The translations under genes and the position numbers were made by a program. Under the pieces are notes generated by a model. It was not told where the DNA came from. It did no database searches and saw only the letters and a program-made list of their open reading frames with translations. A stretch of 64,000 nucleotides of DNA from NCBI GenBank assembly GCA_965219685.1, contig CBDCOH010000002.1, positions 4,000,001 through 4,064,000 on the forward strand, given 5' to 3'. Origin of the DNA: Candidatus Spongiisociaceae bacterium. Its GTDB lineage: Bacteria > Actinomycetota > Acidimicrobiia > Spongiisociales > Spongiisociaceae. Below, one piece after another: positions 1,236 through 9,281 of this stretch. Numbering within the stretch: position 1 is the stretch's first letter; every line of letters begins with the position of its first letter.

Positions 1236-1290
1236 GGTCTATTCCTTTCGGTCATGTGTTCTTGCTTGATCTGACGGGACGGGCCGCGAG

Positions 1291-1620
1291 TCACATCGAT
1301 GCGAACCCGATCGACCTGAGTTGCTTCCGTCCTTCCTCCGAAACCTGGTCAGGACACCAAGGCGGGTCGAACACCCAGCTGACATCGAAGTCCTCGAGCA
1401 CGCCCCGGCCGACCAACTCGTTCCGCATCTGGTCCTCGATGACCGAGGTCAGGGGGCAGAAGGGGTTGGTGAGGGTGACGTCCAGGGATGCATGCGAGCC
1501 GTCGACCTGCACCTCGCGAACGAAACCGAGGTCGACGATGTTGACGCCGAGATCCGGATCGATAACCTTCCGTAGCGACTCGATGATCTGGGTCTCGATG
1601 CCCATGGGAGTGTCCATCAC
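1291..1620 (-). CDS. DUF59 (SufT/PaaD/MIP18-like) metal-sulfur cluster assembly factor
   Basis: VIDPDLGVNIVDLGFV, LTNPFCP and VFDPPW motifs. Confidence 0.9.
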   Translation of the reverse strand: MMDTPMGIETQIIESLRKVIDPDLGVNIVDLGFVREVQVDGSHASLDVTLTNPFCPLTSVIEDQMRNELVGRGVLEDFDVSWVFDPPWCPDQVSEEGRKQLRSIGFASM

Positions 1621-1621
1621 A

Positions 1622-2020
1622 TCACCTTCCTTCGGTCGTTCTGTCGTCGTTGGTGAGGCTCGGCCAGGTGATCACTCGGAGCTGTATCTCGACCCGGGTG
1701 GTCCTGGTGGTGATCCAGTCGGCTATGCCGTGGGCCATCCGGCGGAGTCGGGTTACCACGTCTCCGTCACCTACGGTCCAGGGTCCGACCACCATCTCGT
1801 GGCTTCGGATCCCGAAGCGGGCTGCCTCCGCGATCCCCTCCTCGAGTACCCGTGCGAGCGGCGCCGAAGTCGTCCCGGCCCTGAACTTCAGGGCACGGTG
1901 AGCCTCGTCGGCGGGTATACCGTCGAGACGCGAAAGGATACGCCTCGCCTCGTCCTGGTCGATACGCACGTTGGTCTTGCAGGCCGTGACCGTTGGTTCC
2001 GGGATCCGCGCCCTGCTCAT
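1622..2020 (-). CDS. Divergent ribosomal protein uL22-like protein within monooxygenase operon
   Basis: Near gap-free manual alignment to bacterial L22 (VR....AR.....G....A...L....VLE.IA.A...G.....V....V.DG...R...A.G.AD.I..RT). Its start overlaps the upstream reductase stop (ATGA). Confidence 0.8.
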   Translation of the reverse strand: MSRARIPEPTVTACKTNVRIDQDEARRILSRLDGIPADEAHRALKFRAGTTSAPLARVLEEGIAEAARFGIRSHEMVVGPWTVGDGDVVTRLRRMAHGIADWITTRTTRVEIQLRVITWPSLTNDDRTTEGR

Positions 2021-3261
2021 CGCCGTCTTCTCTTCCGGCCGATGCGGCGCAGGTCAGTCGACAGATCCTCGACCTGGGCCGCGGTAACGGCAGTGCCTGC
2101 CCTCATGAGCTTGCGGGCGGCGAAGATGTCGCGGGGTCGTCCGATCGTCAGCACAGCTTCGATCTTATCCGCATCCGCCTCGTCGCCCGATAGCTGGAAG
2201 GCGGAAAACGACCTATCCTCTACCGAACCCCGGATCACATGGCGGGCGTACGGGTCGAAGTGTCCGAGCGACTGGATGGTCAGGTCGTACTGGTCCGACC
2301 AGAACCAGTGGGGGCTGTCGTCGGTCGCGTCCTGACCCAGGATATTGCGAGCGACTACTGCCCCCTGCCTCATGGCGTTGTCGTGATGCTCCACCCGCAG
2401 GTGGCGCCCATCGCGCTGCTGTGCCGCGGCGACATCTCCGGCCGCGTACACGTTGGGTACCCGTGTCCGGCAGTGCCTGTCGACGCGAATCCCCCCTCTC
2501 ACCTCGATAGCGGTGTCATGAGCAGGTTCGGTATTGGGGATCATCCCGGCTGCTACCAGCATCCACTCGCACTCGAGTTCTCCCCGGTCGGTGGTTACTG
2601 CCAACCCGTCGGAGGTCTCCACCACGCTCGTCACCCGCTCTCCGAGCCGCAGCACGCATCCCTCGTCGCGGTGGACTTCGGTCATGACCCTGCCGTAGCG
2701 GTCTCCTAGCGGGGCACGCAGGCACTGCTCCTCCATCTCGATGATGGTTATCTCCGCTCCCAGCCCGCGCCCGGTGGCCGCAACCTCGCATCCGATGAAC
2801 CCTCCGCCGAGTACCACGGCCCTATCGCTGTCACGCAGCCGACGGGCCAACTCCTCGGAGTCGTCACGGGTACGCAGATGCAGGATCCGGTCACCCTCGA
2901 ACCCCGGCAGTCTCCGGGCTCGGCCGCCGGTGGCGACCAGGAGATGGTCGTAGGGGACCGTCCCTTCTCTGTCGGTCTCGATCGCCGAGGAGTCGACGTC
3001 GATCGAGACCCCTCTGGTGCCGAGTAGGAGTTCGATGTCGTTTTCCCGGTACCACTCCTCGGCCCGGATGGTGGTGTCGCCGGACCGCATCGACCCGGCG
3101 AGCACCTCCTTGGACAGGGGTGGGCGCTCGTATGGGGGCGCCTCCTCCTCGGATACCAGGACGACGCGGCCATCGAACCCCAGATGTCTGAGGGTCGACG
3201 CGGCCGCCGCCGAGGCAGTACCGCCGCCCAGGAGCATGACGGTCTCGGAGAGACCAGTCAT
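2017..3261 (-). CDS. FAD-dependent ferredoxin reductase (putidaredoxin-reductase/GR type)
   Basis: PYERPPLSK, LLVATG, VLGGGFIGCE, YAAGDVA, VEH, FWSDQY; no 2Fe-2S Cys motif. Confidence 0.92.
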   Translation of the reverse strand: MTGLSETVMLLGGGTASAAAASTLRHLGFDGRVVLVSEEEAPPYERPPLSKEVLAGSMRSGDTTIRAEEWYRENDIELLLGTRGVSIDVDSSAIETDREGTVPYDHLLVATGGRARRLPGFEGDRILHLRTRDDSEELARRLRDSDRAVVLGGGFIGCEVAATGRGLGAEITIIEMEEQCLRAPLGDRYGRVMTEVHRDEGCVLRLGERVTSVVETSDGLAVTTDRGELECEWMLVAAGMIPNTEPAHDTAIEVRGGIRVDRHCRTRVPNVYAAGDVAAAQQRDGRHLRVEHHDNAMRQGAVVARNILGQDATDDSPHWFWSDQYDLTIQSLGHFDPYARHVIRGSVEDRSFSAFQLSGDEADADKIEAVLTIGRPRDIFAARKLMRAGTAVTAAQVEDLSTDLRRIGRKRRRR

Positions 3262-3262
3262 G

Positions 3263-3583
3263 TCAGCCGGGCGGCGCTACACAGATGACGCCTCCCTCGA
3301 CCTTGCAGGGGATGGAGAAGAGGGCCGAATCGGCGGGGTTGATGCCTTCGCCGGTGAGGGCGTCGAACTCCCAGAGGTGGTTGATGCACGTCAGCACCTT
3401 GCCGTCCAGATCCCCGTCGTGAAGGGGCCACGCCTGATGGGGACAGCGGTCCCGGTAGGCGCGTACCTCCCCGTCCACGTTGACGATTACGACCTTCGTC
3501 CCGCCGACGTCGAGGCCTTCGATGTCACCTTCCCAGAGGTCATCGAGGTCCATGACCTCATGCCACCGGGCTGCGTCGCTCAT
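3263..3583 (-). CDS. tmoC: Rieske-type [2Fe-2S] ferredoxin (TmoC-like)
   Basis: CPHQ...CINHLWEFD..TGEGINP Rieske motif; located in the SDIMO operon. Confidence 0.92.
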   Translation of the reverse strand: MSDAARWHEVMDLDDLWEGDIEGLDVGGTKVVIVNVDGEVRAYRDRCPHQAWPLHDGDLDGKVLTCINHLWEFDALTGEGINPADSALFSIPCKVEGGVICVAPPG

Positions 3584-3613
3584 CCGTGGCTCAGTGGTCT
3601 GTCGGCGAGCTGG

Positions 3614-4639
3614 CTACGCAAGTTGCAGAGCGCCGAGTCCGGCGTCGGCAAGCAGTTGCTCCCGCGCCGCCCGAGCCTCCGCGGCCACCGCTTCCGCGGT
3701 GATGTCTCCGGCCGGCGCCTGGGCCAGGATGCCTCCCAGAGCCAGGACGGCGGCATCCGCCCGGGGTGCCCACTTATTGATCCAACGTTCGAAGGCCGGG
3801 CCGTTCTCCGGACGACCTTCTACCGCCAGGCGCGCCACGGCCGCCGACCACCTGCCCCTACGAGCCGAGTCCTGGTGCAGGTTCTGGCACAGCAGCCACG
3901 TGAGATCGTCACCGTTGGCGCGGGCTGCCTCTCCCAGCGCCCGGTTGAGGACATCGTCGAGTGTCGGAGCTATCACCAGGTTGGCGGCTGTCAACGCCTC
4001 GCCCCAGTCGTAGGCGATCAGCGCCCGCTCGAGAAGCTCTCGGGTCGGCTGCCAAGCCTCGTGGCCCTCCCAGACCTCCCGCTCGCCGGTGGCGAAACCT
4101 GCGTCCGGGTAGCCCAGCTGCAACTCACGCGTACGGATGGACACCACCGTCACCCGCCGGAGCTGGTCCGCCATCGACAAGGATGCCGCATTGGTGATGT
4201 ACGCCGTGGGGGACATGTGTGCCACGTAGGCCTGCAGCATCTGCAGCGCATGGGACGGGTACCGGATCGGCGTGTAGAACGTCCGCAGTATCTCCACCCA
4301 TCCGGGGGAGAGGGACTGGTCGTGGCCAATGCTCGAGTAGCTGTCCATCAGACCGGCGACCTTCGTCTCCTGGGCGGCCTGCTTGGCTACGTAGGCCCGG
4401 TACGTCAACTGGTCCGGGTCTCTGTACACCTCCCAGTCGTCGAGTTGCAGGGGCGAGTTGTCACGATAGGCCAGGAACCACAGGTTGCCCGGCGACGAGG
4501 GGTTCTGCTCCAGCGGCGCCATCCTGTCCCGTCGAACCGTGTAGTTGGCGGCGTGGGCGCCGATCTCGTACTCGGTAGGCCGGCGGCGGATGTCGCCGAA
4601 CTCGCTCCAAGTGCGCAGCTTTCGCTTCTTGGCGCTCAT
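3614..4639 (-). CDS. tmoE: Soluble di-iron monooxygenase hydroxylase beta subunit (TmoE-like)
   Basis: LRTWS..RRRPTEYEI, RDPDQLTYRAYV, WQPTRELLERALIAYDWGEA. Confidence 0.92.
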   Translation of the reverse strand: MSAKKRKLRTWSEFGDIRRRPTEYEIGAHAANYTVRRDRMAPLEQNPSSPGNLWFLAYRDNSPLQLDDWEVYRDPDQLTYRAYVAKQAAQETKVAGLMDSYSSIGHDQSLSPGWVEILRTFYTPIRYPSHALQMLQAYVAHMSPTAYITNAASLSMADQLRRVTVVSIRTRELQLGYPDAGFATGEREVWEGHEAWQPTRELLERALIAYDWGEALTAANLVIAPTLDDVLNRALGEAARANGDDLTWLLCQNLHQDSARRGRWSAAVARLAVEGRPENGPAFERWINKWAPRADAAVLALGGILAQAPAGDITAEAVAAEARAAREQLLADAGLGALQLA

Positions 4640-4941
4640 GATGTGACGTCCTCCTCCGTCGCCCCTCCGAGCGACCAGCTCGTCTGGTCGCTGCGGGAGG
4701 TGTTTATACGTCCGGCATTGGCGGTCAGCAGGTTCTCCAGCGACCGCAACTGGTAATCGGGTCCCAGATAGCGCTTGAGCGACTCGGCTGTCACCTTGAG
4801 GAAGGAGGAGGCGTGGACGCGCACGTACGCGCCCCGGTCGATCACCTCGATCTCGCGGCCCGGGTTGTCGTCCTCGATGGCGCTTATGATCTCCTCGATC
4901 GTGTCGCTCATCCGCAGGATCGGCCCTACCGGATTGTCCAT
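4636..4941 (-). CDS. tmoD: Monooxygenase effector/coupling protein (TmoD/MmoB/DmpM family)
   Basis: NPVGPILR, AIEDDNPG, DRGAYVRV, AGRI; start placed at ATG 4941 after a GGAGG-like RBS. Confidence 0.9.
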   Translation of the reverse strand: MDNPVGPILRMSDTIEEIISAIEDDNPGREIEVIDRGAYVRVHASSFLKVTAESLKRYLGPDYQLRSLENLLTANAGRINTSRSDQTSWSLGGATEEDVTS

Positions 4942-4951
4942 ATCGACCCTC

Positions 4952-5227
4952 CTACTCTGCCCAGTCGACACGGATGTGGTCGAGCGGGCCTATGCCCGCC
5001 TCGGCCACCGTTACGTCGTCGGGCACTATCCGGTTGTTGTGAATGACGAGCTTGGGCAAGCCACGGTCCCGCACCCGCACTCCCACCGTATGGTGGGCGA
5101 CGGCCTCCGCAACCTCCGCCATGGTGTTGTTGGACATCACCGGGATGAGCAACTCGACGAAGTCGTCGGCGAAGATGGCGTTGAGCGGGACGAGCTGGGG
5201 TTCGGCGGCGGCGCCGTTGTCGCTCAT
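4952..5227 (-). CDS. tmoB: Hydroxylase gamma subunit (TmoB-like)
   Basis: PLNAIFADDFVELLIPV..TMAEVAEAVAHHTVGVRV...AGIGPLD; ATG at 5227 overlaps the alpha-subunit stop. The ORF-track upstream extension is spurious. Confidence 0.9.
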   Translation of the reverse strand: MSDNGAAAEPQLVPLNAIFADDFVELLIPVMSNNTMAEVAEAVAHHTVGVRVRDRGLPKLVIHNNRIVPDDVTVAEAGIGPLDHIRVDWAE

Positions 5228-6732
5228 CCACCCACCCCCGCGCCTACCGGCTCGGTGCGTGCGTAGGCCTCCGTCCAGTCGTAGCCGCCGGCGTCGTCGC
5301 CCATGACATCGGGCGTGAGCCCCATATACCCGAGAATTCCGGGGACATCCATCGGCTGGATCTGGCCGGCGAGGAAGCGCTCCACCACCGTATGGTTGTT
5401 GAGAGCGTCCCGATCCTCCCACCAGATCTGGCGGCAGCCCTTTGTGCAGAAGTGGTACGTCACACCGTTGTGCTTCAGCGAATGGTTGCGCACCCGCCAC
5501 TTGCCGTCCCGCCCGTACGATGCGTTGCAGGTCGGGAGGTGGCAGTAGTTGCACAGCCACGGGAGCGTCTCCGGCAGGGCGCGGTGCATGTTCCCGGCGT
5601 TGATGTTCTCCGCCAGGATCTTCCACTTGTCGCCGTACAGGAGGTCCCAGTTGGGATACTTCTCGATGAGCCACTCGCGTGACTCGGGCGTGATCCCGAC
5701 GGGCTTCCACCACAGGGTCGGGCGCCAGAACCACTCACCCATCTGTAGCGAGTGATGCCACACGTCGAGGCCCTCGATGAACTCGTCCCAGTACCAGGGG
5801 CGCTTCAGGCCGTAGTCCTGGATGGTGCGGACGAACTGGTCGATGATCCATTCCTCCATGAACTCCCGGTAGCTGTACTTGCGGGACTCCACCGGGGTGT
5901 TGTAGTCCATCGACGGTCCGGTGAGGGCGGCGAAGGCCCGTGCGGAGAGCCAGAAGAACTTGTCGACCGTCCACTGAGCCCGAACCGGGTCGTGCTCCAC
6001 CAGGACCTCCAGCGTGGGCCCACCCTGCTGGGAGTGGCGAGCCTCGTCGGTCTGGATCGAGGAGATCAGGTTGGCGAAGGCCACATCCCCGGCCTCGAGG
6101 GCGTCGGCGGCCAGTGCCACGAACTGGATATTGGTGAATCCGGTCTCGAATGCGAACGGGAGTTGGATGGCAATGTCCACCACGCTGCCGCCGATCATCA
6201 TGTTGTCGATCAGCGCCCGCAGGGCGATGGCCACCCAGTCGTTGGTGAGCAAGGCCCGGTGAGCCCAGTCGAACTGGGGATCACGCTCCACCAACTCGTG
6301 GGCGAACGATAGGCTGAGCTGGCCGTGGCGGATCTCGTCGAGGGTGCCCATCACTGCCATGTTGCGCCAGGCTGGGCTCAACCCGAAGCGGGCCATGCGG
6401 CTTTCGCCGTACACGGCTGCATACTCGACCAGGGCAATCCCGCCGAGGTGCATCTTGACCGACGACCTCCACGCCTCGTCCAACTTTTCGTACTGGTTCG
6501 ACCGGTTCAGGGCGGCCTTCACCGCGTAGGCGGAGGTTTCCTTCTCGTCCTGGGTGGCGACGTACTCGGGGTAGGCGACCTTGTAGCTCTCCTCCCACTT
6601 CGACCAGGCCTCACGGGGCACCTTGCCCGATCCGCTCAGCCAGTCCGGGTAGACCGCCTCGTCGTCCACGTAACCGAGAGTCCAGTCGACATCCCGGACG
6701 ATCCCCTGCCATTCCTCACGTCTGAGAGTCAT
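5224..6732 (-). CDS. tmoA: Soluble di-iron monooxygenase hydroxylase alpha subunit (TmoA/TouA/IsoA-like)
   Basis: Two di-iron motifs DEIRH and DEARH, FETGFTN, and C-terminal YHS-like YHFCTKGC. Confidence 0.95.
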   Translation of the reverse strand: MTLRREEWQGIVRDVDWTLGYVDDEAVYPDWLSGSGKVPREAWSKWEESYKVAYPEYVATQDEKETSAYAVKAALNRSNQYEKLDEAWRSSVKMHLGGIALVEYAAVYGESRMARFGLSPAWRNMAVMGTLDEIRHGQLSLSFAHELVERDPQFDWAHRALLTNDWVAIALRALIDNMMIGGSVVDIAIQLPFAFETGFTNIQFVALAADALEAGDVAFANLISSIQTDEARHSQQGGPTLEVLVEHDPVRAQWTVDKFFWLSARAFAALTGPSMDYNTPVESRKYSYREFMEEWIIDQFVRTIQDYGLKRPWYWDEFIEGLDVWHHSLQMGEWFWRPTLWWKPVGITPESREWLIEKYPNWDLLYGDKWKILAENINAGNMHRALPETLPWLCNYCHLPTCNASYGRDGKWRVRNHSLKHNGVTYHFCTKGCRQIWWEDRDALNNHTVVERFLAGQIQPMDVPGILGYMGLTPDVMGDDAGGYDWTEAYARTEPVGAGVGG

Positions 6733-6745
6733 GGTTGCTCCTTCC

Positions 6746-7210
6746 TCAGTCGACTTCCATGTGGCCGAGTTGGCGGTAGATCGAGGCGCTGTTCCAGTAG
6801 GCGGTCAGGCTCTCGATCTTGCCACCGTCATTGACATCGAAAACGAACGCGTGGGGTTCCCAGTACTTCATCCCCTTCGGGGCGATCGGTCCCCATGCCT
6901 TTTCCTGGCAGCCGCCGATGCTCACCACCACGGCGACCTTTCCGTCCTCGGAGGCGGTGATGGAGTGGACCTCGTTGGACAGGTCCGGGAAGGAGTTGAT
7001 AAGTCCCTCCCACATGGGCCGACCCAGCGTGGCCACCTTGCCGTCGCCCCTGATGACCCGTTGCTTGGTCCAGATCTCGAATGGGACGTACGAGAAGTCG
7101 GCGTTGTCTGTGCATAGGTCGACCATCGCCAGCGTGTCGTGGCGGCGGTAGGCGTCGAAGAAGGCCTCCACCGTGGTGGTGGGATCGGCCTTCGTAGCAG
7201 TAGTTGTCAC
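6746..7210 (-). CDS. SnoaL-like / ester cyclase (NTF2 fold) protein
   Basis: VEAFFDAYRRHD, SFPDL, KIESLTAYWN; GTG start after AAGGAG. Confidence 0.85.
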   Translation of the reverse strand: MTTTATKADPTTTVEAFFDAYRRHDTLAMVDLCTDNADFSYVPFEIWTKQRVIRGDGKVATLGRPMWEGLINSFPDLSNEVHSITASEDGKVAVVVSIGGCQEKAWGPIAPKGMKYWEPHAFVFDVNDGGKIESLTAYWNSASIYRQLGHMEVD

Positions 7211-7224
7211 GATTTCTCTCCTTC

Positions 7225-7644
7225 CTAAACGATCGACACCGCGTCGAGGCGCTTGACCGCCAGCCTGCGGTAGAGAACGTTCTGATCCCAGAATCCCCGG
7301 ATCGAGGAAATACGTCCGTCGGATGTGCCCAGTAGCCACACCTGATCGAGGTCGATGTGTTTCTCCTGGTTGACGACACCCAGGTACTCGGCCGCCTGGG
7401 TTCCCTCCATCTTCATCTCGGTCACCGCGGTTCCGTCGGTTCCGATGAAGTGGTTCTTGGTGGTCAGCAGCAGATCCGGGAAGGCAGTGACCGTGGCTGC
7501 GAAGAAGCCCCTGGCCTCGTCCTTGCCTCCGTCGACGTTGGCCGGGAGCACGTCGATGGTCGCGTCATCGGCGACCAGGTCCATCGCGCCGTCCACGTCA
7601 CCGGCCCGGATCGCATCCCAGAAGTCAGCAGCTGTGTCGGACAT
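7225..7644 (-). CDS. SnoaL-like / ester cyclase (NTF2 fold) protein
   Basis: FWDAIRAGDVD, AFPDL, EGTQ, DGRISSIRGFWD. Confidence 0.85.
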   Translation of the reverse strand: MSDTAADFWDAIRAGDVDGAMDLVADDATIDVLPANVDGGKDEARGFFAATVTAFPDLLLTTKNHFIGTDGTAVTEMKMEGTQAAEYLGVVNQEKHIDLDQVWLLGTSDGRISSIRGFWDQNVLYRRLAVKRLDAVSIV

Positions 7645-7659
7645 CGGTATCACCACCCG

Positions 7660-8679
7660 TCACAGTACATCGAGGCTCTTGAGAACCGCGTCGGCCACCG
7701 CGTCGGCTGAACCCGGGTTCTGGGCGGTGATCAGGTTGCGGTCCACCACCACATGGGATGCCCAGGCGTTGCGCCCGTCGTCGAACACCGCTCCGGCGTT
7801 GCGCAGGGCGCTCTCCAGGTACCAGGAGAGACCTTGCTGACCGGGCCGGGTCTGGTCCTCCTCCTCGTCGGTGAAGGACGTCACCCGGTAGCCGTCGAAC
7901 AGCCACTGGCCGTCCATGTTGGCGGGTGCGGAAAGCAGGAAGGCAGGGCCGTGGCACACCGAGGCTATGGCGGCCTGCTTCTCGTGGAGGATGCCTATCA
8001 CCCGGGTCACGTCGGGGTTGTCGGCCATGTCCACCATGGGTCCGTGGCCACCCGGTACGAACACCGCGTCGAACTCGGCGATCTCCTCGTCCGTCATGGC
8101 CGAGAGGTTGGCCGGCGAGACGAAGTCGGGGAGCGCGTCGAGGGCGTCCTTGACACGCTGCGACTCGGCGCCGCTGTCTGCGATCACCTCGGAAAGGGCC
8201 GCCTCGAGCTCGGTCCGCGTGACAGATCCGGGGAGGTCCTGGGTCTCGAGTTCGTCGAGGAACTGGGTGTCGTTCCGCCAGGAGACGGAGGCGGCGCTCG
8301 AGATGAGCTTGCGGGCCTCGATCGGGCTCAGGCCGGCTTCCTTGAGCCGGTTGAACACCCGGAGCGCGGAGATCATGCCCAACTCCGTCAGGTGGTGGAG
8401 GGTCAGGCGGATGTCGTCCACGTCATGGGCGAAGGTCCGGGTGATGCTGTTGAGGAAGTCCTCGTCGTCATCCGGATAGTGGAAGATCTCCTCGAGCCCG
8501 TACGGGTCGGCGTAGGGGGAGCGGCCGTCCGGCGTGGCGACCACCACATCCACCCCCGCCTCGATGAAGCGCTCGTAGGGAGTGAGCGCCTCGTCGGCGA
8601 AGTAACCGGTCTCGTAGTCGGATCCGTCCGCGAGCTGCATCTCCCGCGCGCTCGACACTAGGAACAACAATCGTGGCAT
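7660..8679 (-). CDS. DJ-1/PfpI (type 1 glutamine amidotransferase-like) protein with internal insertion
   Basis: TGYFADEA, VATPDG, FVPGGHGPMVD, SVCHGP, LITAQNPGS; start at ATG 8679. Confidence 0.9.
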   Translation of the reverse strand: MPRLLFLVSSAREMQLADGSDYETGYFADEALTPYERFIEAGVDVVVATPDGRSPYADPYGLEEIFHYPDDDEDFLNSITRTFAHDVDDIRLTLHHLTELGMISALRVFNRLKEAGLSPIEARKLISSAASVSWRNDTQFLDELETQDLPGSVTRTELEAALSEVIADSGAESQRVKDALDALPDFVSPANLSAMTDEEIAEFDAVFVPGGHGPMVDMADNPDVTRVIGILHEKQAAIASVCHGPAFLLSAPANMDGQWLFDGYRVTSFTDEEEDQTRPGQQGLSWYLESALRNAGAVFDDGRNAWASHVVVDRNLITAQNPGSADAVADAVLKSLDVL

Positions 8680-9281
8680 GGCAGGCCTTCCTTCCGCTGC
8701 TACACCGGTCGGTTCGGTTACGTCTGGACAAGCTGCTGAGGTCAGCCACACCCGAAACGGCTGAGCGGGACCGGCACGGCGGAGGCTATCAGAAACCCGC
8801 CCGGACTGTCAGATTGCCGGGCCCTAAAACGCCACCGGCGGTCGATCAGCGCTACCCGCCACGACGCAGCCGATCGTGGCATGGGGAACCTCCCGACGAG
8901 GTGCGATGCCGGTCTTGGGGGCCGGTTGGTTTGAGACCGCAAGGAGGGGCCGGGCCGGGGGGCCTTTGCCGGCTCGGTTTGTGGAATGGCATCCTGGTCA
9001 TGTGTCTGCTGCCGGTGGCTCGCCGGTACGGAGTCCGGCTACCGCCCGGGACTAAGGTGGGATGCCCAGTGACCGGATTACGGATGCCTGCCGGAAGGCC
9101 ACATGTCGCGATTGAGGTACCGCGAAGCGTCACGCTGCTGAGACCGGTTCCCGCTTCGGTGTTGCTGGACGGGCTGGACGCTGTAGTGCGGCCGCGCGCG
9201 CTCGATCAACACGCAAGACGATTCTCGTTCCCCGCGGGAGTGCTTCGTTCCCGCCGGACACCGAGTCAAGGAGGGTAGGAG

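What the first reader, a model, noticed from the sequence alone, without database searches (positions are those of the whole stretch)
1622..2020. Ribosomal protein uL22 fold apparently repurposed inside a di-iron monooxygenase operon
Seen: a 132-aa ORF coupled to its neighbours (ATGA overlap with the reductase, 1-bp gap to DUF59) aligns by eye almost without gaps to bacterial L22. Compared with E. coli L22 as I recall it, it keeps the structural core (R11, R18, G26, A32, VLE, IA.A, V.-G, A.G.AD.I..RT). Many basic residues are replaced: K16>E, R25>D, K41K42>GT, hairpin tip RAKGR>MAHGI, R95>W, K98>T. No other S10-operon gene is nearby. Established: rplV is normally single-copy in the S10 operon, and its hairpin lines the exit tunnel. 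Inference: this is a non-ribosomal paralog acting as a maturation or assembly factor for the hydroxylase or Fe-S partners (with DUF59), an RNA-binding regulator, or an alternative tunnel protein. I know of no characterised SDIMO accessory with this fold.
Basis: partly seen in the sequence, partly recalled or inferred. Interest (0 to 1): 0.88.

Follow-up and report, generated by a model that had tools for sequence, protein, structure and literature searches.

The report
uL22-like domain in monooxygenase operon
A diverged copy of ribosomal protein uL22 has become a fixed part, next to or fused with an iron-sulfur-assembly (DUF59) domain, of an unstudied group of toluene-monooxygenase-like enzyme operons, where it probably helps build the enzyme rather than the ribosome.

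Summary
Window 1622-2020 (-) encodes a 132-aa protein that matches Pfam Ribosomal_L22 over the whole profile (50.4 bits, cut-off 28). It falls below the rplV equivalog cut-off (41.3 vs 73.65). It folds as uL22 with the long hairpin. The genome has a normal rplV in an L23-L2-S19-L22-S3 operon elsewhere.

The paralog is not a one-off. In 87 related loci (sponge-associated Acidimicrobiia MAGs, soil metagenomes, a Rhodococcus koreensis plasmid) it follows the Rieske ferredoxin or reductase gene of the same SDIMO operon in 74 of 75 testable cases. DUF59 comes next in 73 of 75. In 52 of those 73 the two are one fused protein.

The paralog is under purifying selection (dN/dS 0.14). It has lost most of uL22's excess positive charge and several canonical residues. 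It has gained an invariant hairpin motif, RxRRxAHGxADW.

Two related TMO operons with the canonical gene order lack it.

Best reading: a non-ribosomal uL22-derived module working with DUF59 as a dedicated maturation factor of this monooxygenase. The genomic link is shown; the biochemical role is inferred. My literature searches found no description of it.

The parts
1622..2020 (-). uL22-like paralog, 132 aa. Predicted elements: strand 10-18, helices 22-32, 37-46 and 49-67, long hairpin 76-94/100-116 with the invariant motif T90-R-L-R-R-M-A-H-G-x-A-D-W-I-T-T-x-T107.
1291..1620 (-). DUF59 / FeS_assembly_P protein, 109 aa, with the conserved DPD...T-x3-C55 motif. It is fused to the L22-like domain in most relatives.
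2017..3261 (-). Ferredoxin-NAD(+) reductase of the glutathione-reductase family (Pyr_redox_2 + Reductase_C), 414 aa. Its stop overlaps the L22-like start (ATGA).
3263..3583 (-). Rieske [2Fe-2S] ferredoxin, 106 aa
3614..4639 (-). Hydroxylase beta subunit (Phenol_Hydrox), 341 aa
4636..4971 (-). MmoB/DmpM effector (coupling) protein, 111 aa
4952..5227 (-). TmoB-type gamma subunit, 91 aa. Its ATG overlaps the alpha subunit's stop.
5224..6732 (-). Di-iron hydroxylase alpha subunit, 502 aa. Two ExxH motifs (DEIRH, DEARH) are visible in the translation. It scores 556 bits to ToMO TouA.
6746..8751 (-). Upstream conserved genes: DJ-1/PfpI-family protein (7660-8751) and two SnoaL/NTF2-like proteins (7225-7656 and 6746-about 7222).

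Best explanation
The 132-aa protein descends from ribosomal protein uL22 but has left the ribosome. It has become a dedicated accessory module of one clade of group-1 (toluene-monooxygenase-like) soluble di-iron monooxygenases.

It works as a unit with the DUF59 protein encoded right after it. In most relatives the two are one polypeptide joined by a disordered linker.

The DUF59 half carries the reactive-cysteine motif known from SufT and PaaD-type factors, which support iron or Fe-S cofactor maturation. I infer that the L22-like half is the docking module. Its rigid, remodelled beta-hairpin (RxRRxAHGxADW) would recognise the client or partner, either the hydroxylase or the Rieske ferredoxin. 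The pair would then load or repair the metal centres of this enzyme, much as PaaD is thought to do for phenylacetyl-CoA epoxidase.

Shown: uL22 homology and fold, separation from canonical uL22, obligate operon linkage, fusion with DUF59, and purifying selection. Inferred: the maturation role, the hairpin as contact surface, and the identity of the client.
For: Homology and fold:
- PF00237 50.4 bits, above the cut-off of 28.
- The family profile hits only uL22 in the PDB.
- AF2 pLDDT 83.8, and all 50 top Foldseek hits are uL22.

Not the working rplV:
- TIGR01044 41.3 bits, below 73.65.
- The genome's own rplV scores 110.8 bits in L23-L2-S19-L22-S3.
- Paralogs split from 19 canonical uL22 with SH-aLRT 100.
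- Core net charge has a median of +3 against +12. The canonical residues at positions 24, 61, 62, 65, 69, 90, 94 and 109 are replaced.

Linkage, across 87 loci:
- A Rieske or reductase gene lies directly upstream in 74 of 75 loci with at least 400 nt upstream.
- DUF59 lies downstream in 73 of 75 loci with at least 500 nt downstream.
- The alpha subunit is present in 25 of 26 loci with at least 5.5 kb upstream.
- In the window's own family, the paralog is present in the 2 genomes that have the alpha gene and in none of the 3 that lack it.
- Two other TMO operons of the phylum (alpha 49-50% identical, canonical gene order) gave no L22-like or DUF59 hit in the 13-14 kb read.

Fusion:
- 52 of 73 loci are fused.
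- Both Pfam domains are present in 5 of 5 proteins of about 250 aa.
- Two Atlas clusters of 101 and 124 members carry PF01883 + PF00237.
- The Rhodococcus koreensis plasmid gene WP_206017194.1 is one such fusion.
- The fusion model has two well-folded domains, a linker below pLDDT 50, and pTM 0.52.

Selection: dN/dS is 0.142, close to DUF59 (0.122), Rieske (0.135) and reductase (0.151).

Functional surface: 11 of 18 positions conserved at 90% or more lie in hairpin residues 88-107 (P = 2.6e-6). R93, R94, H97, D101 and W102 are specific to the paralogs.

DUF59 precedent:
- PaaD is indispensable in vivo but not needed in vitro for a related di-iron epoxidase (PMC4498308, passages).
- SufT acts in Fe-S maturation through a reactive cysteine (PMC9045647, passages).
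- That cysteine motif is invariant in the window's DUF59 family.
Against: - No experiment or prediction here shows what the L22-like domain touches. The maturation role rests on guilt by association and on the still poorly defined DUF59 family.
- The hairpin keeps three invariant arginines and gains a tryptophan, and the domain is still basic in most members (median pI 9.7, range 5.9-11.5). This is also compatible with RNA binding.
- Two loci (L042, L043, near-identical) have the L22-like gene but no DUF59. An aldehyde dehydrogenase and an ABM protein follow instead.
- One locus (L112) shows no Rieske or reductase in about 700 nt upstream. One (L104) has no alpha within 7.6 kb upstream.
- The 80 metagenome loci were retrieved with the hairpin motif itself, so motif invariance within them is circular. 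The independent evidence for the motif is.
- Many loci are close kin: 71 distinct domains fall into 42 clusters at 90% identity and 12 at 70%.
- No RNA data were available.
Confidence: 0.6

Rival explanations
1. It is a permanent structural or electron-transfer subunit of the monooxygenase complex, for example an adaptor between the GR-type reductase, the Rieske ferredoxin and the hydroxylase. On this reading it is not a transient maturation factor.
For: It is always encoded inside the operon, translationally coupled to the reductase (ATGA overlap), directly after the reductase or Rieske gene. It is confined to the clade with a non-canonical reductase type and gene order. Its selection strength is similar to that of the redox partners.
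Against: In 21 of 75 loci no reductase gene lies between Rieske and the L22-like gene, yet the domain is kept. The fusion partner DUF59 is known elsewhere as a maturation factor rather than a catalytic subunit. PaaD, for example, is dispensable in vitro (PMC4498308). Structurally characterised T4MO and ToMO complexes work without such a subunit (recalled, not tested).
Confidence: 0.17
2. It is an RNA-binding regulator. The uL22-derived domain still binds RNA, for example the operon mRNA. Fused to DUF59, it couples iron or Fe-S status to translation of this iron-demanding enzyme.
For: It descends from an rRNA-binding protein. The hairpin has three invariant arginines plus an invariant Trp and His, and the domain is still net positive.
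Against: Net charge drops from a median of +12 to +3, and canonical conserved residues are lost. I looked for no conserved RNA element. No uL22 autoregulation is known to me (recalled).
Confidence: 0.12
3. It is an alternative ribosomal uL22, or a ribosome-docking module that places DUF59 at the exit tunnel so that the monooxygenase is matured co-translationally.
For: The full uL22 fold, including the tunnel hairpin, is retained at canonical length. Eleven core positions are shared with canonical uL22.
Against: It falls below the rplV equivalog cut-off. A normal rplV is present. The canonical residues at positions 24, 61, 62, 65, 69, 90, 94 and 109 are replaced, and the charge is much reduced. 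Its distribution follows the SDIMO operon, not the ribosome.
Confidence: 0.06
4. It is a decaying or functionless duplicate of rplV that hitch-hikes in the operon.
For: It evolves faster than the hydroxylase alpha subunit (58-81% against 89-97% identity).
Against: dN/dS is 0.14. The frame is intact in loci spanning down to 35% identity, with invariant new residues. The fusions are conserved.
Confidence: 0.02

Closest known systems
Ribosomal protein uL22 (RplV; Pfam PF00237; e.g. chains 8crx_r, 5o60_T, 1bxe)
   Same: Homologous over the whole domain. Same alpha+beta fold with the long beta-hairpin. Shared core residues R19, G34, A40, L44, L76, R91, A96, G98, A100, I103 and T107.
   Different: Below the rplV equivalog cut-off. 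Not in the S10 operon. Median net charge +3 instead of +12. The canonical residues at 24, 61, 62, 65, 69, 90, 94 and 109 are replaced. New invariant R93, R94, H97, D101 and W102. Encoded in, and often fused within, a monooxygenase operon.
PaaD, the DUF59 protein of the phenylacetyl-CoA epoxidase operon (PaaABCDE)
   Same: A DUF59 protein encoded within the operon of a bacterial multicomponent di-iron oxygenase. PaaD is needed in vivo but not in vitro and is proposed to help iron incorporation (PMC4498308, passages). The window's DUF59 hits PaaD models.
   Different: The scores are below the PaaD cut-offs (76 vs 180, and 55.5 vs 108.15). I recall no uL22-like domain in PaaD (not tested). The oxygenase family is different.
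SufT (M. tuberculosis Rv1466, PDB 5IRD) and other DUF59 Fe-S maturation factors
   Same: 5ird_A is the best solved relative of the DUF59 neighbour (131 bits). The D-P-[DE]...T-x2/3-C reactive-cysteine motif is kept.
   Different: SufT sits in the suf operon and has a different N-terminal extension. Here the N-terminal partner is a uL22-derived domain and the context is an SDIMO operon.
SDIMO accessory proteins (DmpK/PHK of phenol hydroxylases, MmoD of sMMO)
   Same: Small extra operon-encoded proteins that are not catalytic components. The review PMC11825192 lists an 'accessory protein' gene in PhMO and sMMO operons (passages). A role in assembly of the active hydroxylase is what I recall for DmpK/PHK.
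   Different: No sequence relation: the only Pfam hit is PF00237. Different SDIMO groups. The review describes group-1 TMO operons as six genes without an accessory (section 3.1).
Toluene/o-xylene and toluene-4-monooxygenases (ToMO 1t0q, T4MO 3dhg): group-1 SDIMOs
   Same: The alpha subunit scores 556 and 534 bits. TmoB, MmoB/DmpM, beta and Rieske ferredoxin components are all present.
   Different: The gene order is alpha-gamma-effector-beta-ferredoxin-reductase instead of alpha-gamma-ferredoxin-effector-beta-reductase. The reductase is GR-type. L22-like/DUF59 and upstream DJ-1 + 2 NTF2 genes are additional. The substrate is unknown.

Membership tests
uL22 ribosomal protein (functional RplV) | Pfam PF00237 domain above the gathering score | tested here: met
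   50.4 bits against 28, profile positions 1-103 of 104
uL22 ribosomal protein (functional RplV) | Reaches the NCBIfam equivalog model TIGR01044 rplV_bact cut-off | tested here: not met
   41.3 bits against 73.65. The genome's own rplV gives 111.4 bits on PF00237.
uL22 ribosomal protein (functional RplV) | uL22 fold with extended beta-hairpin | tested here: met
   AF2 pLDDT 83.8 with strands 76-94 and 100-116. The 50 top Foldseek hits are all uL22, TM 0.59-0.75.
uL22 ribosomal protein (functional RplV) | Encoded in the S10 operon between rpsS and rpsC | tested here: not met
   It lies between a ferredoxin reductase and DUF59. The canonical copy sits in L23-L2-S19-L22-S3.
uL22 ribosomal protein (functional RplV) | Strongly basic, with the canonical conserved residues | tested here: not met
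   Net core charge is +2 in the window protein (family median +3) against a canonical median of +12. The canonical consensus residues at positions 24, 61, 62, 65, 69, 90, 94 and 109 are replaced in the window protein.
uL22 ribosomal protein (functional RplV) | Incorporated in the 50S subunit | not testable with these tools
   Needs ribosome fractionation or cryo-EM.
L22-like::DUF59 SDIMO accessory family (proposed here) | Hairpin motif R-x-R-R-x-A-H-G-x-A-D-W | tested here: met
   Window residues R91 to W102. R93, R94, G98 and W102 are invariant, and R91, A96, H97 and A100 are conserved at 90% or more, in sequence-search-derived alignments A1 and A2. D101 is invariant in A1 and in the 34 fused proteins of A5 and is conserved at 90% or more in A3, but it is not among the positions listed at 90% or more for A2.
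L22-like::DUF59 SDIMO accessory family (proposed here) | Directly followed by, or fused to, a DUF59 domain | tested here: met
   In the window, DUF59 starts 1 bp after the stop. Across the family, 73 of 75 loci have DUF59 and 52 are fused.
L22-like::DUF59 SDIMO accessory family (proposed here) | Located at the 3' end of an alpha-TmoB-MmoB-beta-Rieske-(reductase) operon | tested here: met
   Window. Across the family, 74 of 75 loci.
DUF59 / SufT / PaaD (the neighbour gene) | PF01883 above cut-off and the conserved reactive-cysteine motif | tested here: met
   64.2 bits against 23.5. D21, P22, D23, T49 and C55 are invariant in 27 sequences.
DUF59 / SufT / PaaD (the neighbour gene) | Equivalog-level match to SufT or PaaD models | tested here: not met
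   TIGR02945 69.8 against 143.4, TIGR02159 55.5 against 108.15, NF041868 76 against 180.
Group-1 SDIMO (TMO) operon | TmoA-like alpha with TmoB, effector, beta and Rieske ferredoxin | tested here: met
Group-1 SDIMO (TMO) operon | Canonical six-gene order alpha, gamma, ferredoxin, coupling protein, beta, reductase (PMC11825192, section 3.1) | tested here: not met
   The order here is alpha, gamma, coupling, beta, ferredoxin, reductase, L22-like, DUF59.
Known SDIMO accessory proteins (DmpK/PHK, MmoD) | Sequence membership in those families | tested here: not met
   A Pfam scan at E up to 1 lists only PF00237 for the 132-aa protein.

The most novel reading that the evidence does not exclude
The uL22-derived domain still uses its ancestral nucleic-acid or ribosome interface. 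In one version it docks at the ribosomal exit-tunnel region. In another it binds the operon mRNA. Either way, the tethered DUF59 domain would deliver iron or Fe-S cofactors to the nascent monooxygenase subunits co-translationally, or would gate their translation by iron status. That would be a ribosome- or RNA-coupled metallo-enzyme maturation device built from a ribosomal protein.
Probability: 0.1. Interest if true: 0.92.

Novelty: new variant of a known kind. Interest (0 to 1): 0.72.

Why it matters
It would be the first uL22-fold domain I can find with a conserved role outside the ribosome. It also adds a previously unnoticed seventh and eighth component to a widespread but uncharacterised clade of toluene-monooxygenase-like enzymes, seen in soil Actinomycetota, a Rhodococcus plasmid and sponge symbionts.

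[quoted passage not shown] A dedicated maturation factor is therefore a practical candidate to include when expressing this clade.

It also gives DUF59 research a natural two-domain system with a defined client operon.

Tried and rejected
- Complex prediction of DUF59 with the L22-like protein, each as a 27-row alignment, returned 'no answer' (score 0.23, mark 0.32). I use it neither for nor against binding.
- Sequencing-run search: no RNA holder was listed, so there are no expression data.
- BLASTP of the paralog against the genome's own rplV found nothing significant (E 2.2). Homology is visible only to profiles.
- The ESM Atlas search with the 132-aa protein gave only sub-0.9 leads.
- The genome search with profile A2 across 400 genomes of the phylum could not separate paralogs by E-value alone, because canonical rplV scores up to 88 bits. 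Only G000 reached 173 bits, and no genome had two matches. Fourteen of those genomes are unpublished (G088, G391, G268, G120, G048, G226, G343, G001, G318, G018, G239, G336, G082, G148). The statement 'no paralog found in the 400 sampled genomes' therefore rests partly on them. The sample is probably the same.
- The Nonomuraea 'plasmid' hit (H2) lies about 3.5 kb downstream of a predicted EF-Tu gene, the only annotated feature there. It is probably the canonical rplV, but I did not check, and I set it aside.
- Literature searches:
  - L22 + 'soluble di-iron monooxygenase': 0 papers.
  - 'Ribosomal protein L22' + 'toluene monooxygenase': 0 papers.
  - DUF59 + 'diiron monooxygenase': 0 papers.
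  - DUF59 + L22: 4 unrelated papers, judged from the listing only.
  - The SDIMO review PMC11825192 holds none of 'ribosomal', 'L22' or 'DUF59'.
- Supplements are closed. S1A Fig of PMC9045647 (nine DUF59 architectures) and Tables S1/S2 of PMC11825192 could mention this architecture or clade, and I did not see them.
- I rejected the long + strand ORF 1256-2335 as antisense noise, because the homologues, Pfam and dN/dS all support the - strand genes.
Full report
**What is at the coordinates.**
Window 1622-2020 (-) is an intact 132-aa ORF. Its ATG overlaps the TGA of the upstream 414-aa reductase gene: the + strand reads tcat at 2017-2020. Its stop lies 1 bp before the start of a 109-aa DUF59 gene. 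The genes on the minus strand, from upstream to downstream, are:

| Coordinates | Product |
|---|---|
| 7660-8751 | DJ-1/PfpI-family protein |
| 7225-7656 and 6746-about 7222 | two SnoaL/NTF2-like proteins |
| 5224-6732 | hydroxylase alpha |
| 4952-5227 | TmoB-type gamma |
| 4636-4971 | MmoB/DmpM effector |
| 3614-4639 | hydroxylase beta |
| 3263-3583 | Rieske ferredoxin |
| 2017-3261 | Pyr_redox_2-type ferredoxin reductase |
| 1622-2020 | the L22-like protein |
| 1291-1620 | DUF59 |

The alpha subunit scores 556 bits to ToMO TouA and 534 bits to T4MO TmoA. This is a group-1 (TMO-type) SDIMO.

**Is it really uL22-like?**
Yes.
- Pfam Ribosomal_L22 matches residues 13-114 over profile positions 1-103 of 104, at E 2.7e-13 and 50.4 bits against a gathering score of 28.
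- A profile of 41 close homologues hits 50 distinct PDB sequences at E up to 0.01. All are uL22 chains, and the best are actinobacterial (8crx_r at 1.8e-11, 5o60_T at 6.1e-11).
- The AF2 model (pLDDT 83.8, pTM 0.71) has one strand, three helices and a long hairpin at 76-94/100-116.
- Its 50 best Foldseek PDB hits are all uL22, with E down to 1.7e-10 and TM 0.59-0.75.

**Is it the ribosomal protein?**
No.
- It scores 41.3 bits on the rplV equivalog model, whose cut-off is 73.65.
- The genome (4.42 Mb, 2 contigs) has exactly two PF00237 matches. The other scores 110.8 bits. It is a 121-aa protein flanked by L23, L2, S19 and S3 according to Pfam.
- BLASTP between the two copies is not significant.
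- In a tree of 71 distinct paralog domains and 19 canonical uL22 sequences, the two groups are split with SH-aLRT 100 across a long branch. This was a quick search on few columns, so only this split and a few starred clades are trustworthy.
- Over the aligned core, the paralogs have a median net charge of +3 (pI 9.7) against +12 (pI 11.5) for canonical uL22. The window protein has 16 K+R and 14 D+E, against 22 and 9 in its own rplV.
- Shared with canonical uL22: R19, G34, A40, L44, L76, R91, A96, G98, A100, I103 and T107.
- The canonical consensus residues K24, S61, A62, N65, N69, K90, P94 and H109 are replaced in the window protein.
- New invariant residues appear at 93, 94, 97, 101 and 102.

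**The family.**
- A word-indexed search found 43 clusters at 59-100% identity, all carrying PF00237.
- An exhaustive phmmer search of 1.84 billion representatives found 63 proteins at E up to 1e-3. The non-canonical ones, at 32-53% identity, share the hairpin motif RxRRxAHGxADW with a few variants.
- Several are about 250 aa long. Pfam finds Ribosomal_L22 followed by FeS_assembly_P in 5 of 5 of these tested.
- The ESM Atlas holds two clusters (101 and 124 members) in which 99-100% of members carry both domains. They are mostly Actinomycetota.
- Automatic source names are 'ribosomal protein L22', 'metal-sulfur cluster biosynthetic enzyme/ribosomal protein L22', and 'iron-sulfur cluster assembly protein [Solirubrobacteraceae bacterium]'.

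**Genomic context.**
I examined 87 loci. Six came from species-representative genomes, all Acidimicrobiia or Ca. Spongiisociaceae-type MAGs. Eighty are the best of 199 metagenome relatives. One is a Rhodococcus koreensis plasmid. I ran tblastn with the window's operon proteins against them.
- Of 75 loci with at least 400 nt upstream, the gene directly upstream (215 nt away at most) is the reductase in 53 and the Rieske ferredoxin in 21. In 1 locus (L112) it is neither.
- Of 75 loci with at least 500 nt downstream, DUF59 follows in 73. The exceptions are L042 and L043, which are near-identical and have an aldehyde dehydrogenase and an ABM protein instead.
- In 52 of those 73 the two domains are in one open frame. 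In 21 they are separate, as in the window.
- Of 26 loci with at least 5.5 kb upstream, the alpha gene is present in 25 (not in L104).
- DJ-1 plus the two NTF2 genes precede alpha in 19 of 19 loci with at least 2.3 kb upstream of it.
- The Rhodococcus plasmid annotation shows the same series. Its fused gene is named 'iron-sulfur cluster assembly protein'.

Two caveats apply. The metagenome loci were found through the hairpin motif, so they say nothing independent about that motif. Many are also close kin: there are 42 clusters at 90% identity and 12 at 70%. The context counts themselves are not circular.

**Distribution.**
- In 400 sampled genomes of the class, only 2 others have the paralog. 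Both are in the window's own family (2 of 5).
- Those same 2 have the alpha gene, and the 3 without the paralog lack it.
- In 400 sampled genomes of the phylum, none has a second L22-type match (this sample includes 14 unpublished genomes).
- Two genomes in that sample carry TMO alphas 49-50% identical to the window's. They have the canonical order alpha-TmoB-Rieske-MmoB-beta. The 13-14 kb read around them gave no hit to L22-like, DUF59, the GR-type reductase, DJ-1 or NTF2.

The module therefore marks one sub-clade, in which alpha is 66-97% identical to the window's. Its patchy spread and its presence on a plasmid suggest horizontal transfer, which is an inference.

**Is it functional?**
- Among 7 close sequences (21 pairs, Nei-Gojobori method), median dN/dS is 0.142 for the L22-like gene. 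The comparisons are 0.122 (DUF59), 0.135 (Rieske), 0.151 (reductase) and 0.061 (alpha).
- Of 18 positions conserved at 90% or more across a 27-sequence family alignment, 11 lie in hairpin residues 88-107 (hypergeometric P = 2.6e-6).
- From the DSSP strand limits (94 and 100), R93 should face D101, and L92 should face W102, across the hairpin. A cross-strand salt bridge that stiffens a free-standing finger is my inference, not a result.

**The partner domain.**
- The DUF59 protein keeps the D-P-D...T-x3-C motif, invariant in 27 sequences.
- Its best solved relative is 5ird_A (131 bits), which PMC9045647 identifies as M. tuberculosis SufT.
- That paper (passages) reports that the reactive cysteine mediates SufT's interactions with Fe-S biogenesis and client proteins.
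- PMC4498308 (passages) states that PaaD, a DUF59 protein, is indispensable in vivo but not required in vitro for the PaaABCE di-iron epoxidase, and may incorporate iron into PaaE or PaaA.
- The genome has two other DUF59 matches and only this one SDIMO, so the operon copy is a dedicated one.
- A model of a natural fusion (P0058, 34-row alignment) shows a confident L22-like domain (pLDDT about 95), a linker at 116-140 below pLDDT 50, a DUF59 domain at 70-85, and pTM 0.52. The two domains are tethered without a confidently fixed mutual orientation.

**Mechanism proposed.**
Shown: a uL22-derived, non-ribosomal domain family, bound by operon position and by gene fusion to DUF59 and to one SDIMO clade, and under purifying selection with a remodelled hairpin.

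Inferred (confidence about 0.6): the pair is a dedicated maturation or repair factor for the enzyme's metal centres, meaning the di-iron site or the Rieske cluster. DUF59 would handle the cofactor, and the L22-like hairpin would dock on the client or a partner.

Rivals:
- a permanent structural or electron-transfer subunit (0.17);
- an RNA-binding regulator (0.12);
- an alternative or ribosome-docking uL22 (0.06);
- a decaying duplicate (0.02).

**Comparison with known systems and novelty.**
- The SDIMO review PMC11825192 describes group-1 operons as six genes. It leaves subgroups A and B (Actinomycetota, Acidobacteria and others) uncharacterised (section 3.1). Its main text holds none of 'ribosomal', 'L22' or 'DUF59'.
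- Four literature searches found nothing on this architecture. Supplements were closed.
- Automatic annotations already display both domains. The architecture is therefore visible in databases but, as far as I could search, undescribed.
- I rate it a new variant of known kinds: SDIMO or DUF59 accessory factors, and extra-ribosomal paralogs of ribosomal proteins.

The complex prediction gave no verdict. No RNA-seq run was listed.

Noticed in passing
window 6746-8751 (-): A DJ-1/PfpI-family gene and two SnoaL/NTF2-like genes precede the hydroxylase alpha gene. The same three precede alpha in 19 of 19 related loci with enough upstream sequence, and on the Rhodococcus koreensis plasmid. The conserved module therefore has about 11 genes. 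NTF2-like proteins include epoxide hydrolases (recalled), which hints at an epoxidising SDIMO. The substrate is unknown.
   Followed up: partly
L004:6748-8001 and L039:8748-10001: Between the reductase gene and the L22-like gene lies an extra stretch of about 1.25 kb. It holds a degenerate partial copy of the L22-like N-terminus (residues 1-62, 52% identity) and of the reductase C-terminus (residues 329-414, 56-57% identity). This looks like the remnant of a tandem duplication.
   Followed up: no
L042:451-2411 and L043:8048-10325: Here the L22-like gene (151 aa) is not followed by DUF59. An aldehyde dehydrogenase (Pfam Aldedh) and an ABM-domain protein follow instead. These are the only DUF59-less cases among 75 testable loci.
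   Followed up: partly
L119 (Rhodococcus koreensis R85 plasmid NZ_CP070611.1, 321719-332493): The whole cluster sits on a 503-kb linear plasmid. It is followed by genes annotated as antibiotic biosynthesis monooxygenase, serine hydroxymethyltransferase (glyA) and succinate-semialdehyde dehydrogenase. These are possible clues to the pathway and to horizontal spread.
   Followed up: no
window 2017-3261 (-) and gene order 2017-6732: This SDIMO clade uses a glutathione-reductase-family ferredoxin reductase (Pyr_redox_2 + Reductase_C) and the order alpha-gamma-effector-beta-ferredoxin-reductase. This differs from the canonical TMO order and, as I recall, from the TmoF-type reductase. In 21 of 75 loci no reductase gene lies between Rieske and the L22-like gene.
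   Followed up: partly
L001:1857-3152 (own genome, rpsC): The frame read here (431 aa, from just after rplV's stop; the true start lies further in) has the KH_2 and Ribosomal_S3_C domains within its first 200 residues. A long C-terminal extension of repeated G/R/P-rich units follows.
   Followed up: no
L104:1-7629 and L112:1-712: These are two context exceptions. L104 has no alpha, TmoB or MmoB hit in the 7.6 kb upstream of beta. L112 has a fused L22-like::DUF59 gene with no Rieske or reductase hit in the roughly 700 nt upstream.
   Followed up: no
L107:185-1218: The L22-like and DUF59 parts lie in different frames of overlapping ORFs. This is a frameshift or an assembly error in an otherwise fused-type gene.
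   Followed up: no
window 1256-2335 (+): A 359-aa ORF runs antisense across the DUF59, L22-like and reductase genes. I treated it as a high-GC artefact, because all homology and selection evidence is on the - strand.
   Followed up: partly
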